Source of the DNA: Escherichia phage vB_EcoM_G17
Sequence record: MK327931.1
DNA length: 64,000 nucleotides
Direction: 5' to 3' (one strand)
Position numbers and translations under genes: made by a program. The notes below the pieces were generated by a model, which made no database searches, had not been told where the DNA came from, and was given only the letters and a program-made list of their open reading frames with translations. Positions 280 through 30,265 of the stretch are shown here, piece by piece. Numbering within the stretch: the stretch's first letter is position 1; every line of letters begins with the position of its first letter.

Positions 280-591
280 TTATAAATTCACCAACTTCAC
301 AACTTTAATCTCGATAAATCCCCTATCGGTTATTTCCTGAAATTGAACATGGATTATACCATTATATGATTGCACACCATAGAAATCGAATTTATCATTT
401 CCATCGATAAAAGTACTGTAATTCTTTTTTATATATTCACCTACTGAATCTAAGTACTCAATATATAAATCAATAAATGGTTGTTCTTTGGATCGGTTAT
501 GTGAACCTATGTTGTTACTAACAAGGTATACATCATACAAATCATATAGGATCTTATAAGTGAATTGTATATCATTTAAATTTAATCCCAA
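280..591 (-). CDS. hypothetical protein, Family C paralog
   Basis: ORF track; motif DIQFTYKILYDL; tandem paralogs. Confidence 0.6.
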   Translation of the reverse strand: MGLNLNDIQFTYKILYDLYDVYLVSNNIGSHNRSKEQPFIDLYIEYLDSVGEYIKKNYSTFIDGNDKFDFYGVQSYNGIIHVQFQEITDRGFIEIKVVKLVNL

Positions 592-848
592 GGGAATATC
601 TCCAACGGAATACTGGTAAATCCAAAATCAGTGTAGTACTGAACCTCAACTTTACCATCACGTCTAATGATTATATCAGAAAATTCTGCATGGTCATCAC
701 CAATAATAACAGTACTGAATTTTTTTTTAATCTTACCACGAATCGTATGAATCATTTCAGTGCATGTGTCTTCTAGACTAGGGCTATCATTGTCGTGTGC
801 TAAATCTCGAATAATCTTGTATGTTAGTAGGAAATCTTTATAATTCAT
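582..848 (-). CDS. hypothetical protein, Family C paralog
   Basis: ORF track; motif FLLTYKIIRDL; start overlaps upstream stop. Confidence 0.6.
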   Translation of the reverse strand: MNYKDFLLTYKIIRDLAHDNDSPSLEDTCTEMIHTIRGKIKKKFSTVIIGDDHAEFSDIIIRRDGKVEVQYYTDFGFTSIPLEIFPWD

Positions 849-1120
849 ATGTCCACCAAATCTATACTATATCTTTCATTAGTATTACTATCTATAAATG
901 ATAGTACTAATTTACCACCAAAACTATTAACTTGTTCTATCTTCTGTTTTTTACCACGAATGATTATCTCACTATTAACAAAATATTCACGTATCATTAT
1001 TAAGTGATTAATCCAGATAGTATGAGTGAATGTGTTTTCTCGTATTGTATTGAGATATCTTCCATTGTGATGTAAATCAAACAAAACACTGTATGTATAT
1101 TGTAGAACTTTATAATTCAT
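845..1120 (-). CDS. hypothetical protein, Family C paralog
   Basis: ORF track; motif LQYTYSVLFDL; ATGA overlap with neighbour. Confidence 0.6.
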   Translation of the reverse strand: MNYKVLQYTYSVLFDLHHNGRYLNTIRENTFTHTIWINHLIMIREYFVNSEIIIRGKKQKIEQVNSFGGKLVLSFIDSNTNERYSIDLVDI

Positions 1121-1853: not shown

Positions 1854-2061
1854 TTACACCAATTTTGATTTCACATATGTTATTTGATTTACTCGCTTCA
1901 GTCAATAACATTTTGTGCTCTTTACTGAAAGTGTGGAACAGTGGTTTGACATGCCACATTTCGATACCATCCAGTACTGAAAATTTTTCACTAAATTTAA
2001 TCATTGATTCTTGTAAAAAATATCCTGTAAGATTTATTTCATCACACATGCAAGTTTCCAA
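1762..2061 (-). CDS. hypothetical protein
   Basis: ORF track; overlaps 1167..1853 by about 90 nt, boundaries uncertain. Confidence 0.4.
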   Translation of the reverse strand: METCMCDEINLTGYFLQESMIKFSEKFSVLDGIEMWHVKPLFHTFSKEHKMLLTEASKSNNICEIKIGVNVYKGMVIFFDNNSNYFYIVKEHYVDKYKY

Positions 2062-2335
2062 GAAAATTAATCACATCTGCATGTGATAATGTATCATTAC
2101 CTTCTAGTACATTAATGATAAACGGCACTTGACGATATAGTTCAGCCAGGAATTGTACCTCATCAGATGTGTAAGAATATCCCATAGGAACAACCTGTGC
2201 AGTCCAGTTTCCTAGAGTTTTGTTAGCAATAATTGCAACTACAGTATTACCTTTGTATTCAACATGGATGGAACGAAATCCTGATTGCTCATTTTGATCC
2301 CAAAGTACTGGATTGGTTTTGAACAGTACTGACAT
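2042..2335 (-). CDS. hypothetical protein
   Basis: ORF track; tiled in leftward operon. Confidence 0.55.
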   Translation of the reverse strand: MSVLFKTNPVLWDQNEQSGFRSIHVEYKGNTVVAIIANKTLGNWTAQVVPMGYSYTSDEVQFLAELYRQVPFIINVLEGNDTLSHADVINFLGNLHV

Positions 2336-2337
2336 AA

Positions 2338-2871
2338 TTATTTCCTCATGTATTTTATAACGTCTTCAAATAATTGTATTTTTAAGTCCTCGTCATTTCC
2401 AGGTAAAAACTCACGAAAACTATCAAAATCTTCATTTTTTGCGAAGTTACGCATTTGTGTTGAGCTATATTGACTTACATTACGGTCAATACCTGCCTGA
2501 ATTGCTTTTATACTACAAAAATTATACAACTTACCATTGTACATGTCAAGAGTTTTTTGAAAAGAATCAATACGGTCAGAACCACAAATGAAAAGAACAT
2601 CTAAGTACTTTCCATCCAGTTCTCTCATTATATCAAATAGATTGTCTTCTGTGTAGATGTTCTCTTGCACTGAAGGATAGAATCCCTCTGTATAATACAT
2701 TTTTAGTTCAGGTGGGAGTGGGTTTTTTATATTGTCAGTACTGGTGCTTAGATATATTTTTAAATCAGCATTGTACTGTTCTTGTAATGTTTTGGCCTTT
2801 TCAAAAACTAAACCATGTCCACGATGTACAGGATTAATACGACCAAACGTTAATACACATGTTTCTTTCAT
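2338..2871 (-). CDS. nucleotidyltransferase, NMN/NaMN adenylyltransferase-like
   Basis: N-terminal FGRINPVHRGH (GxFxPxHxGH nucleotidyltransferase signature) and C-terminal YSSTQMR (ISSTxxR-type motif); 177 aa. Confidence 0.7.
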   Translation of the reverse strand: MKETCVLTFGRINPVHRGHGLVFEKAKTLQEQYNADLKIYLSTSTDNIKNPLPPELKMYYTEGFYPSVQENIYTEDNLFDIMRELDGKYLDVLFICGSDRIDSFQKTLDMYNGKLYNFCSIKAIQAGIDRNVSQYSSTQMRNFAKNEDFDSFREFLPGNDEDLKIQLFEDVIKYMRK

Positions 2872-3389
2872 AAATTCTTCATCACCAATCCGAGAGATTT
2901 AAGATAATTAATTTTAGCAGTGGTTAAGTACTTATCCAGTACTATCAGACACGAAGGAAATGGTGCTGAATCTGTTTTCTTATCGGGTTCTTCTGGTATA
3001 CCAAATCGTAATCTTCCCTTAATAAAACAAATACAATCACATATTTTAGCAGCATAATCCTGAAAAGCAATTGTGTCGGTTCTTGAGGGTACAAGAATAA
3101 CTACAGTTGCCCCGTTATTATATGCATCTACTGCTTTAGATAACCAAGTTTTCAAATCACTGTATGGTGGATTCAACCAAACTATATTATTTCCCCAATC
3201 CTGTGATAGTGAATCATCTTCTGGAGTGAAAAAATTATCACACAATGCAGTCTCATCAACACAAGCAGCATCAAGTGTAAATCCCCATAACTCATCCAAA
3301 TCTTCAAAGAAATCTTTGGGAGTTGTCCAGTTATCTTTTCCAGTACTGAAATGTACTGAATGTTTTTTCGAAGCATCCTTCTTCGACAT
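2868..3389 (-). CDS. DNA N6-adenine methyltransferase (phage Dam family)
   Basis: NPPY catalytic motif (WLNPPYSD); N-terminal WTTPKDFF..LDAAC region typical of phage N6A methylases; ATGA overlap with upstream gene. Confidence 0.75.
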   Translation of the reverse strand: MSKKDASKKHSVHFSTGKDNWTTPKDFFEDLDELWGFTLDAACVDETALCDNFFTPEDDSLSQDWGNNIVWLNPPYSDLKTWLSKAVDAYNNGATVVILVPSRTDTIAFQDYAAKICDCICFIKGRLRFGIPEEPDKKTDSAPFPSCLIVLDKYLTTAKINYLKSLGLVMKNL

Positions 3390-3948: not shown

Positions 3949-4567
3949 CATTATTCCTATGGAAACATCAATGAATATACGTGACGTTGATTGCATCAAC
4001 ATCAGTAGAATTATCATGCTACGCATGTCTAATTCTACACAAGTACTATTTTCTTTTAATTAATATTGACGGGGTTTGCTTGAGCATATTTCATCCCCCC
4101 GCAGGGGAAAGAACAAAAAAATTTGACGCTGGTGGCCTTCACATAGTTCATATCACGAATTCTCTTACGAGACGAAAGCGGGTTGCTCTGTTTCTCTCTA
4201 TCGCGGTTCTTGTAGCAACGGTCGTCGGTCTTAAACATCCCGACACATAATACAAATACCATATGACCAGTACTTGTATTTGATTTCACAAAATTTGGAC
4301 GCAACTATATTGTATAATTCCGACCGCATATTTCTTATGAAATCTCCCTTAGATAATTGGTAAGGTGCGATCCTTATATGTCTATCGAGGAACTCTCTTT
4401 ATCCTATTGGAGTTCTTTATACAGCCGCATTGCCGTGAGTGGTTCAAACTATGCCATCATCTAACGGGTTTCATCTGCTGTTCGTACTGAAAGGACTACT
4501 CATCTACCCTCTACATTTTCGAGTGGATTAGGCTTTTAATCATTTCCTTATGGGAACCTTTCAGGAT

Positions 4568-4602
4568 TAAAAAAAGGTGACTAACATATTATGTTGTCAC
4601 CT
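4568..4602 (-). terminator. rho-independent terminator closing the leftward gene array
   Basis: Hairpin GGTGACAACAT/ATGTTAGTCACC at 4576-4601 followed on minus strand by U-run; directly after stop of 4632..5486. Confidence 0.7.
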
Positions 4603-4631
4603 TATATTATATCATTAACTTATCATTTGTC

Positions 4632-29753: not shown

Positions 29754-30265
29754 AAACCTATTTCCTCTAAATCTTTGACAAATGTATCATAATCCGATAA
29801 TGACAAAAATATGTCTGTACTGATGTTTTGACGTAATGTATTAAACAAATTATGTACCTGTAATAAATCAGGTGCATAAATCAGGGATTGCTGGAAATAC
29901 GATTCTTCTGTATCTAATATATCCCTGCACTCAATTTCACGAACTCGTTGGTATATTGAATTTAATAATACATTTTCATCTTTGAGCATTGGAAGGTATC
30001 GGATGTACATGTGCTCCATCAACTCATCCTGGATTGAACCCCTGAACTGCAACACGTATTCAAAACACATCACTACATCTTGTAGGTAATTGGCACTGTA
30101 ATTATTGCTGTAAACAATCTTATGACTTCTGAACTCATCATCATTTCTGAACCAATTGTCACCTACTTTGGTGTACTTATGACTAAGCTTCCCATCCTCC
30201 AACGCTCGAATGAACTTCATAATGTTAATTGCAAAATCATATGAATGATGCTTGTGTTGATGCAT
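29750..30265 (-). CDS. hypothetical protein, FamA paralog
   Basis: FamA core EESYFQQSLIY. Confidence 0.65.
   Translation of the reverse strand: MHQHKHHSYDFAINIMKFIRALEDGKLSHKYTKVGDNWFRNDDEFRSHKIVYSNNYSANYLQDVVMCFEYVLQFRGSIQDELMEHMYIRYLPMLKDENVLLNSIYQRVREIECRDILDTEESYFQQSLIYAPDLLQVHNLFNTLRQNISTDIFLSLSDYDTFVKDLEEIGL

What the first reader, a model, noticed from the sequence alone, without database searches (positions are those of the whole stretch)
2338..3389. Phage-encoded NMNAT-like enzyme adjacent to a Dam-family methyltransferase
Gene 2338..2871 has both signature motifs of NMN/NaMN adenylyltransferases (FGRINPVHRGH and SSTQMR). An NAD-salvage enzyme in a phage is of interest because NAD depletion is a common abortive-infection mechanism, and phage NAD-synthesis enzymes could counter it. 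The next gene is a Dam-family adenine methyltransferase (NPPY motif), a typical anti-restriction function, so the two may form a small counter-defence module.
Basis: partly seen in the sequence, partly recalled or inferred. Interest (0 to 1): 0.6.

Follow-up and report, generated by a model that had tools for sequence, protein, structure and literature searches.

The report
Orphan phage adenylyltransferase beside Dam methylase
A jumbo E. coli phage carries a small enzyme of the NAD/CoA-building (adenylyltransferase) fold next to a DNA adenine methylase, but it belongs to a large uncharacterised phage-only family, cannot be assigned to NAD synthesis, and is not part of any known NAD-rebuilding counter-defence pathway.

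Summary
Two minus-strand genes overlap by 4 bp: a Dam-family methyltransferase (2868..3389) followed by a 177-aa HxGH/SSTxxR nucleotidyltransferase (2338..2871). The window is Escherichia jumbo phage Sharanji.

The "NMNAT" reading is not established.
- No curated NMNAT or PPAT model comes near its cut-off.
- The protein belongs to the uncharacterised "cytitidyltransferase" family (PHROG 3041/395) of T4-like cyanophages and Rak2-like jumbo phages.

The "counter-defence module" reading is not supported.
- Sharanji has no NAMPT or NadM-Nudix.
- Sister genera carry a canonical NAMPT + NadM-Nudix pair and, about 25 kb away, a separate ortholog of this gene.
- Most cyanophages with the family lack NAMPT.
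- The Dam adjacency is conserved only inside the jumbo clade.

Best reading: an ATP-dependent adenylyltransferase with an unresolved acceptor. NMN is the best single guess, at about 0.3.

Two by-products are noted in passing. Many homologs start with a T4-like capsid-targeting leader. A covariation-supported, multi-copy ~470-nt structured RNA lies just upstream (4027..4631).

The parts
2338..2871 (-). 177-aa stand-alone HIGH-superfamily (HxGH / SSTxxR) nucleotidyltransferase, PHROG 3041/395 'cytidyltransferase' family; no N-terminal leader
2815..2847 (-). FGRINPVHRGH motif (residues 9-19), the ATP-binding HxGH signature; G-R-x-N-P-x-H-x-G-H resembles the NadM/NadR form GRFQPxHxGH
   Evidence: Sequence. 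Family alignment: G10 R11 P14 G18 H19 conserved, while the first His is often Thr.
2449..2466 (-). SSTQMR motif (residues 136-141), the ISxTxxR signature of the adenylyltransferase branch
   Evidence: Reverse complement of 2449..2466 reads AGC TCA ACA CAA ATG CGT. S136 and R141 are invariant in the family.
2868..3389 (-). 173-aa Dam-family DNA N6-adenine methyltransferase, upstream gene of the pair; NPPY at 3162..3173
   Evidence: Pfam PF05869 E=7.4e-32. PHROG 111 E=7.2e-57. TIGR01712 scores 91.5 bits against a 97.05 cut-off.
2868..2871 (-). ATGA stop/start overlap between the methyltransferase and the nucleotidyltransferase (translational coupling inferred)
   Evidence: Read. The same overlapped arrangement is annotated in Salmonella phage Munch and Klebsiella phage Muenster.
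3406..4026 (-). 206-aa ORF of unknown function (PHROG 16210), first gene after the 600-nt non-coding gap; same tightly packed transcription unit
   Evidence: The syntenic gene is present in Munch.
2042..2335 (-). 97-aa ORF of unknown function (PHROG 14956) starting 3 nt after the nucleotidyltransferase stop; same unit
   Evidence: Syntenic small ORFs follow the ortholog in Munch and Muenster.

Best explanation
The 177-aa protein is a functional, stand-alone nucleotidyltransferase of the HIGH (HxGH) Rossmann superfamily. It sits on the adenylyltransferase branch that contains NMNAT, PPAT and FMNAT. It represents a distinct, phage-specific and experimentally uncharacterised family: PHROG 3041/395, the 'cytitidyltransferase' of T4-like cyanophages. 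The inferred mechanism follows the family chemistry. HxGH, R11, K57 and SSTxxR hold Mg-ATP. A phosphate of a small acceptor attacks the alpha-phosphate, giving AMP-acceptor plus pyrophosphate. The acceptor is not resolved. My estimates are NMN/NaMN (giving NAD+/NaAD) about 0.3, 4'-phosphopantetheine about 0.1, FMN about 0.05, and an acceptor not yet described for this fold about 0.5. In Sharanji the gene is co-transcribed and probably translationally coupled with a Dam methyltransferase, in a block of small genes that looks early. The timing is inferred and no expression data were examined. I read the pairing as inherited synteny rather than a functional module. The gene is not part of NARP1, NARP2 or NARP3. 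If it does make NAD+, it could only top up the last step from host-supplied NMN/NaMN. It could not rebuild NAD+ from the nicotinamide and ADP-ribose left by NADase defences.
Confidence: 0.6

Rival explanations
1. One reading: a true NMN/NaMN adenylyltransferase that restores NAD+ against NAD-depleting abortive infection. Together with the Dam methyltransferase it would form a two-gene counter-defence module.
Against: There is no NAMPT, Nudix, RNK or PnuC partner in the genome. In proven systems 94% of phage NAMPTs pair with an NMNAT and neither gene works alone (same papers). Relatives already own a NadM-Nudix and keep this gene separately. The acceptor-binding two-thirds of the protein does not align to NMNATs. 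NMNAT models are missed at 19.8 against 112 bits. A dedicated survey found that every NadM phage has NadV, so this family was not counted as NadM (PMC9503650). The phage ligase is ATP-dependent, so it yields no NMN by-product. The Dam link is clade-restricted.
Confidence: 0.2
2. A PPAT-like enzyme that makes dephospho-CoA from 4'-phosphopantetheine, escaping the CoA feedback that controls host CoaD.
For: Foldseek top hits are PPATs. The only full-length profile-sequence alignments are to H. pylori PPAT, with E about 1e-4 and hhalign probability 87.9% over 134 columns. The size is similar (177 against about 160 aa). Many family members have TxGH as in PPAT. The Muenster annotators cite an HHpred hit at 99.9% probability to PDB entry 5JBN and still name the protein only 'nucleotidyltransferase'. 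I did not check what 5JBN is; from memory alone it may be a PPAT.
Against: hhalign to E. coli PPAT gives only 8% probability. Only 9/40 members touch the CoaD model, all below its cut-off. G-R-x-N-P replaces the PPAT G-T-F-D-P. The annotated phage 'acyl carrier protein' does not reach Pfam at E<=0.001. No CoA-related genes are nearby.
Confidence: 0.1
3. A CTP-dependent cytidylyltransferase, such as a TagD-like glycerol-3-phosphate cytidylyltransferase, as the database name 'cytidyltransferase' implies.
For: The inherited annotation appears in many records. There is a weak Pfam CTP_transf_like match.
Confidence: 0.05

Closest known systems
NadM-type NMN adenylyltransferase (archaeal NMNAT MJ0541; N-domain of bacterial/phage NadM-Nudix, e.g. 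KVP40 NatV, the NMNAT of NARP2)
   Different: Only the first third aligns. Family-specific invariant residues R100, N112, Y111, Y116 and R130 sit where NMNATs bind the acceptor. There is no Nudix domain, no NAMPT partner and no curated-model match. The gene co-exists with a genuine NadM-Nudix in sister phages.
Phosphopantetheine adenylyltransferase (CoaD/PPAT)
   Different: Identity is 13-18%. GRxNP replaces GTFDP. GSDR replaces the RGLR segment. hhalign to E. coli PPAT is insignificant. There is no CoA context.
Cyanophage 'cytitidyltransferase' (PHROG 395/3041; Syn9 gp184, S-RIM8 SXDG_00170, S-SZBM1_140)
   Same: True homologs, 31-39% identity over the whole domain with the same invariant residues. 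This is the family the protein belongs to.
   Different: Cyanophage members are 300-390 aa. They have an N-terminal T4-like capsid-targeting leader and a C-terminal extra domain. They sit between MazG/DUF6267 and a large unknown protein, and are found in virion proteomes. The Sharanji protein is the bare catalytic domain next to Dam.
NARP2 (NAMPT + NMNAT) and NARP3 (PnuC + NadR-like) phage NAD+ reconstitution pathways
   Same: Phage-encoded HIGH-superfamily adenylyltransferases used against NAD+-depleting defences.
   Different: Both are two-gene systems whose members fail alone. Sharanji has neither partner. The syntenic NARP2 locus of related genera is absent in Sharanji, although the flanking SIR2 gene is kept.
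Phage Dam family (PF05869; T1 Dam-like N6-adenine methyltransferases)
   Same: The upstream gene is a clear member: 110.8 bits, NPPY motif, typical 170-aa size.
   Different: It scores just under the NCBIfam equivalog cut-off (91.5 against 97.05 bits). Its target sequence was not determined here.

Membership tests
HIGH-superfamily nucleotidyltransferase (HxGH Rossmann fold) | Five-stranded parallel Rossmann-like fold with (H/T)xGH after strand 1 | tested here: met
HIGH-superfamily nucleotidyltransferase (HxGH Rossmann fold) | C-terminal ISxTxxR-type motif of the adenylyltransferase branch | tested here: met
   S136-S-T-Q-M-R141 is present. S136 and R141 are invariant in 40 diverse members.
NMN/NaMN adenylyltransferase (NadD, NadM, NadR; EC 2.7.7.1/18) | Score above the curated family cut-offs (TIGR00482, TIGR01527, TIGR01526, PRK01153) | tested here: not met
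   TIGR00482 scores 19.8 bits against 112.45, and NF000840 15.3 against 150. Across 40 members the best E-values are only 1e-5 to 1e-8.
NMN/NaMN adenylyltransferase (NadD, NadM, NadR; EC 2.7.7.1/18) | Conserved nicotinamide-mononucleotide binding site | tested here: inconclusive
   Profile alignments to NadM, archaeal NMNAT and NadR stop at residues 60-70. The acceptor region carries family-specific invariant residues instead. No coordinates or ligand docking were available.
NMN/NaMN adenylyltransferase (NadD, NadM, NadR; EC 2.7.7.1/18) | NAD+ or NaAD formation from NMN/NaMN + ATP | not testable with these tools
   This is an enzyme assay. No characterised member of the family was found in the literature searched.
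NARP2 / NARP3 phage NAD+ reconstitution pathways | Partner gene in the same genome (NAMPT for NARP2; PnuC plus an RNK domain for NARP3) | tested here: not met
   tblastn of NAMPT and NadM-Nudix against all 350 kb of Sharanji gives a best E of 0.087. The protein is a single 177-aa domain with no kinase. PnuC was not searched separately.
Phosphopantetheine adenylyltransferase (CoaD) | Match to the curated CoaD model (TIGR01510) and the GTFDPxTxGH motif | tested here: not met
   There is no CoaD hit for the Sharanji protein. Only 9/40 members hit weakly. The motif is FGRINPVHRGH.
PHROG 3041/395 'cytidyltransferase' (cyanophage cytitidyltransferase family) | Significant full-length profile match | tested here: met
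   PHROG 3041 E=8.5e-58 and PHROG 395 E=9.9e-25 over residues 2-176. tblastn gives 31-39% identity to cyanophage genes.
T4-type capsid-targeted internal head proteins | N-terminal leader resembling MKTYQEFIAE, ending in (L/I)-x-E for prohead-protease cleavage | tested here: not met
   The Sharanji protein starts MKETCVLTFGR, with the catalytic motif at residue 9. The jumbo-phage orthologs also lack a leader. By contrast, 27/200 homologs carry the strict motif, against 3/40000 in shuffles.
Phage Dam N6-adenine methyltransferase (PF05869) | Pfam gathering score and the (D/N)PPY catalytic motif | tested here: met
   110.8 bits against 28.1. NPPY is at residues 73-76.

The most novel reading that the evidence does not exclude
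The family is a new class of phage adenylyltransferase whose acceptor is not NMN, phosphopantetheine or FMN. It would be delivered at the very start of infection: packaged through a T4-like capsid-targeting leader in cyanophage-type and other T4-like myoviruses, and made from an early-looking gene block in Rak2-like jumbo phages. In that case it would act on a host or immune metabolite, for example adenylylating or pyrophosphorolysing a nucleotide-derived signal or depleted cofactor. That would be a counter-defence or takeover chemistry not yet described.
Probability: 0.3. Interest if true: 0.75.

Novelty: new variant of a known kind. Interest (0 to 1): 0.4.

Why it matters
Phage NAD+ rebuilding is a current theme in phage-bacterium conflict, so it matters not to mislabel every HxGH enzyme as NMNAT. 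This gene illustrates the point. It belongs to one of the most widespread unexplained enzyme families of large myoviruses. The family is near-universal in T4-like cyanophages, spans about 3400 clusters at 50% identity, and has been seen in virion proteomes. Its database name is a propagated typo, and some records label it 'ribonucleotide reductase A'. It is separate from the canonical NAD-salvage genes, and many homologs carry a capsid-targeting leader. Together these points make a concrete, testable question: what does a phage need to adenylylate in the first moments of infection?

Tried and rejected
- Sequence search of the single protein and of a close-homolog profile against PDB sequences found nothing. 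Only the broader 40-member profile gave weak hits.
- The word-indexed protein search returned only close relatives and almost no names.
- The AFDB50 fold library was not installed, so no structural neighbours beyond the PDB were examined.
- The NadM-Nudix structure paper (PMC2258087) is not held. NMN-site residues could therefore not be mapped. The NARP3 paper lists NadR-like site residues, but I had no sequence to transfer them to.
- Rosetta-stone test: partner domains of 119 long homologs and the cyanophage neighbours (DUF6267, PHROG 764) have no counterpart anywhere in the Sharanji genome.
- DUF6267 and the PHROG 764 protein have no PDB sequence relatives.
- The idea that a phage acyl carrier protein supports a PPAT role was dropped, because the annotated ACP and Macro proteins do not reach Pfam at E<=0.001.
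- The idea that phage ligase supplies NMN was dropped, because the ligase is ATP-dependent.
- The promoter/terminator scan gave only consensus-level matches, 33 found against 24.5 expected, and was not used as evidence of timing.
- Virion proteomics and transcriptomics papers on phAPEC6 and PA5oct do not mention this gene in their main text.

Full report
**What is there**

The window matches Escherichia phage Sharanji at 100% identity over the first 6 kb. Sharanji is a 350-kb Asteriusvirus related to 121Q, PBECO4 and RaK2. The region consists of tightly packed small genes, all on the minus strand.

The ORF at 2868..3389 (173 aa) is a clear Dam-family N6-adenine methyltransferase.
- Pfam PF05869: E=7.4e-32, 110.8 bits against a 28.1 cut-off.
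- PHROG 111: E=7.2e-57.
- NPPY at residues 73-76.

Its TGA stop overlaps the ATG of the ORF at 2338..2871 (177 aa), forming ATGA at 2868..2871. So the methyltransferase is the upstream gene and the two are probably translationally coupled.

**What the 177-aa protein is**

Curated libraries do not place it in any subfamily.
- Pfam CTP_transf_like scores 17.3 bits, below its cut-off of 21.
- The best NCBIfam match is the NadD model at 19.8 bits, against a 112-bit cut-off.
- It matches PHROG 3041 (E=8.5e-58) and PHROG 395 (E=9.9e-25) strongly; both are named only 'cytidyltransferase'.

An AlphaFold2 model built on 13 orthologs is confident, with pLDDT 88.6 and pTM 0.83.
- Foldseek against the PDB returns PPATs and NadD/NMNATs interleaved, at E about 1e-5 and TM about 0.6.

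An exhaustive HMMER search finds 3412 clusters at 50% identity. A 40-member alignment defines the family signature.
- Invariant: H19, N50, R100, N112, S136, R141.
- Nearly invariant: G10, R11, P14, G18, P51, L52, K57, G97, D99, Y111, Y116, G127, R130.
- The first His of HxGH is often Thr, as in PPAT.

That profile aligns full-length only to H. pylori PPAT (E about 1e-4). It aligns to NadM, archaeal NMNAT and NadR only over the first 60-70 residues.
- hhalign to a genuine phage NadM: 91.7% probability over 59 columns.
- hhalign to H. pylori PPAT: 87.9% over 134 columns.
- hhalign to E. coli PPAT: 8%.

Scanning members one by one, more of them brush NMNAT-type models than CoaD or RibF models. 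The counts are NadD 27/40, PRK01153 18/40, NadR 14/40, CoaD 9/40 and RibF 11/40. None comes near a cut-off.

My reading is that this is a separate family on the adenylyltransferase branch of the HIGH superfamily. Its ATP-binding first third looks NadM-like (G-R-x-N/Q-P-x-H-x-G-H, and the NP(L/F) loop with a basic residue seven positions on). Its acceptor-binding part is its own.

**Is it the phage's NMNAT?**

Known phage NAD+ reconstitution systems are multi-gene.
- NARP1: Adps + Namat.
- NARP2: NAMPT + NMNAT. In that study 94% of phage NAMPTs co-occur with an NMNAT (bioRxiv 2024.02.11.579819).
- NARP3: PnuC + NadR-like. Neither gene works alone (PMC13464706).

Related jumbo phages do have NARP2. 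In Yersinia phage fHe-Yen9-03 the order is NadM-Nudix, one ORF, NAMPT, and a SIR2 gene 2 kb further on. tblastn with these two proteins recovers the pair in RaK2, K64-1, Muenster, Munch, 7t3, GAP32, CBB, XaC1, EJP2 and others. No Asteriusvirus appears in the listed hits.

I fetched the whole Sharanji genome and searched it locally. NAMPT and NadM-Nudix give nothing better than E=0.087, whereas the syntenic SIR2 gene is found at 46% identity. The NARP2 genes are therefore absent from this phage.

Muenster, Munch and XaC1 are the key comparison. They have NARP2 and also carry a separate ortholog of the 177-aa gene (58.5, 52.5 and 38.9% identity) about 25 kb from the NAD genes. So this gene is not the NMNAT of that pathway.

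Most family records are T4-like cyanophages: 375 Synechococcus, 61 'Cyanophage' and 24 Prochlorococcus out of 565. Synechococcus phages do not reach the top ten of NAMPT-carrying groups, which means fewer than 55 records. [quoted passage not shown] That could not hold if this family had been counted as NadM.

Sharanji's own ligase is ATP-dependent, so it yields no NMN by-product. The phage does encode a SIR2-family NAD consumer.

A solo NMNAT could at most speed the last step from host-made NMN or NaMN. It cannot rebuild NAD+ from the nicotinamide and ADP-ribose left by TIR or SIR2 effectors.

**The Dam pairing**

The Dam-then-nucleotidyltransferase order, with overlapping or abutting stop and start, is annotated in Munch and Muenster. 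In XaC1 the Dam gene lies four genes upstream. In a PA5oct-like Pseudomonas phage, in the Methylophilales phage Melnitz, in cyanophage S-RIM8 and in three metagenomic T4-like contigs there is no methyltransferase nearby. In those T4-like genomes the gene sits after DNA polymerase, UvsX, the gp41 helicase and MazG, next to DUF6267 and a 570-735-aa unknown protein. The pairing therefore looks like conserved synteny inside one largely collinear phage clade. Nothing shows a functional module.

**What the wider family suggests**

The literature states that the function of the cyanophage 'cytidylyltransferase' is unclear. It also reports the protein repeatedly in purified virions: S-SZBM1_140, S-SCSM1 ORF91 and S-CBWM1 (PMC9146016, PMC9602691).

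I found a likely reason. Of the 200 family proteins held, 27 begin with M-[KRNS]-x-[FYW]-x-x-[FYWLM]-[LIVM]-x-E immediately before the catalytic domain. Examples are MKTYKQFLKE and MKSFFQFLNE. Shuffled N-termini give 3 in 40000. This is almost the T4 capsid targeting sequence MKTYQEFIAE. That leader loads internal proteins into the prohead and is cut off by the prohead protease (bioRxiv 2021.01.19.427310). T4 internal proteins are known as a diverse set of injected anti-defence proteins (PMC3012670).

Many leader-bearing homologs are 600-1100 aa. Their extra parts include PNK/Zeta-type P-loop kinase, DUF5824 or Hint domains. The Sharanji protein and its jumbo-phage orthologs lack the leader and any extra domain. 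No partner domain is encoded elsewhere in Sharanji.

The inference is that the family acts at the very start of infection, either injected or expressed early. That fits takeover or counter-defence in general. It says nothing specific about NAD.

**Verdict on mechanism**

Shown:
- The genes are real.
- The fold is a HIGH-superfamily nucleotidyltransferase with intact ATP-site motifs.
- The family is distinct from curated NMNAT and PPAT.
- No NARP partners are present in the genome.
- The gene co-exists with a canonical NMNAT in sister genera.
- The Dam synteny is clade-restricted.

Inferred:
- ATP is the donor, and adenylyl transfer goes to a phosphate of a small acceptor.
- The gene is expressed early.
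- Translation is coupled to Dam.

Acceptor probabilities, in my judgement:
- NMN/NaMN: about 0.3
- 4'-phosphopantetheine: about 0.1
- FMN: about 0.05
- something not yet described for this fold: about 0.5

**Side finding**

The 600-nt ORF-free gap just upstream of this operon (4027..4631, minus strand) is 78% identical to the equivalent gap in Munch, although the flanking proteins are only about 52% identical. It has four paralogous copies in Sharanji and 4-5 copies per genome in 70 Rak2-like phage records, almost always unannotated.

A consensus fold of five copies has 84 pairs in 16 helices, and 35 pairs show compensatory double changes. In the controls, 95% of cells are paired against 41-46% when partners are slid by 1-3 columns. 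There are 35 covarying pairs against 3-7 in the slid versions, and 0 of 500 shuffles reach the observed values.

Rfam 15 has no match, and it is not a tRNA or tmRNA. The related phage PA5oct is reported to transcribe four unexplained ncRNA regions; homology to those was not tested.

This looks like a genuine, apparently undescribed, multi-copy structured RNA. It deserves its own follow-up.

Noticed in passing
window 4027..4631 (minus strand); paralogs at Sharanji 191727-192200 (L013 41727-42200), 80915-81366 (L011 30915-31366) and 270452-270981 (L015 20452-20981): A ~470-nt conserved non-coding element lies directly upstream of the operon. It has 4 copies in Sharanji and 4-5 per genome in 70 Rak2-like jumbo phage records, mostly unannotated. 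The consensus structure has 84 pairs, 35 of them with compensatory changes. 95% of cells are paired against 41-46% in slid controls, and 0/500 shuffles reach the observed values. There is no Rfam 15 family and no tRNA/tmRNA. It is probably an undescribed structured RNA family of unknown function.
   Followed up: partly
homologs P0040, P0053, P0081, P0094, P0146, P0183 etc.; L004:4752-5906 (S-RIM8); L009:2465-4417 (Melnitz): 27 of 200 family proteins start with a near copy of the T4 capsid targeting sequence (MKTYQEFIAE-like, ending L/I-x-E), against 3 of 40000 shuffled N-termini. This implies they are packaged into the head and injected, and it explains their detection in cyanophage virion proteomes. 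The Sharanji and other jumbo-phage orthologs lack the leader.
   Followed up: partly
Sharanji record 298958-299710 (L010 23958-24710) and surroundings, outside the window: The NadM-Nudix + NAMPT pair present in sister genera next to a SIR2 gene is missing in Sharanji, although the SIR2 gene is kept at 46% identity. No Asteriusvirus appeared among the listed NAMPT or NadM-Nudix hits. This points to lineage-specific loss (or gain elsewhere) of NARP2.
   Followed up: yes
public records matching window 2338..2871: Annotation noise. The misspelling 'cytitidyltransferase' is propagated through dozens of records. The same gene is labelled 'ribonucleotide reductase A' in 121Q (KM507819), Ecwhy_1, fEgEco12, S-MbCM25 and S-MbCM100, and 'hypothetical protein' in Sharanji itself.
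   Followed up: no
window 280..1120 (minus strand) and much of the window: Three consecutive small ORFs (280..591, 582..848, 845..1120) share similar N-termini (..YK..L.YTYK.L.DL..) and look like tandem paralogs. The 64-kb window has no ORF above 284 aa and contains runs of about 200-aa ORFs, which suggests expanded families of small, possibly early genes.
   Followed up: no
window about 27.6 kb onward: The window runs across the ends of the linear Sharanji GenBank record. Window 29822-29860 equals record 2267-2305, so the record start falls inside the window. The offset differs by about 77 nt from simple end-to-end joining, which may mean a short terminal overlap or a different assembly.
   Followed up: no
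window 2868..3389 protein against PHROG 33262: The Dam domain also matches the C-terminal part of a PHROG annotated as PAPS reductase (E=7.2e-10, profile positions 304-469 of 495). So PAPS-reductase-like/Dam fusion proteins exist in other phages.
   Followed up: no
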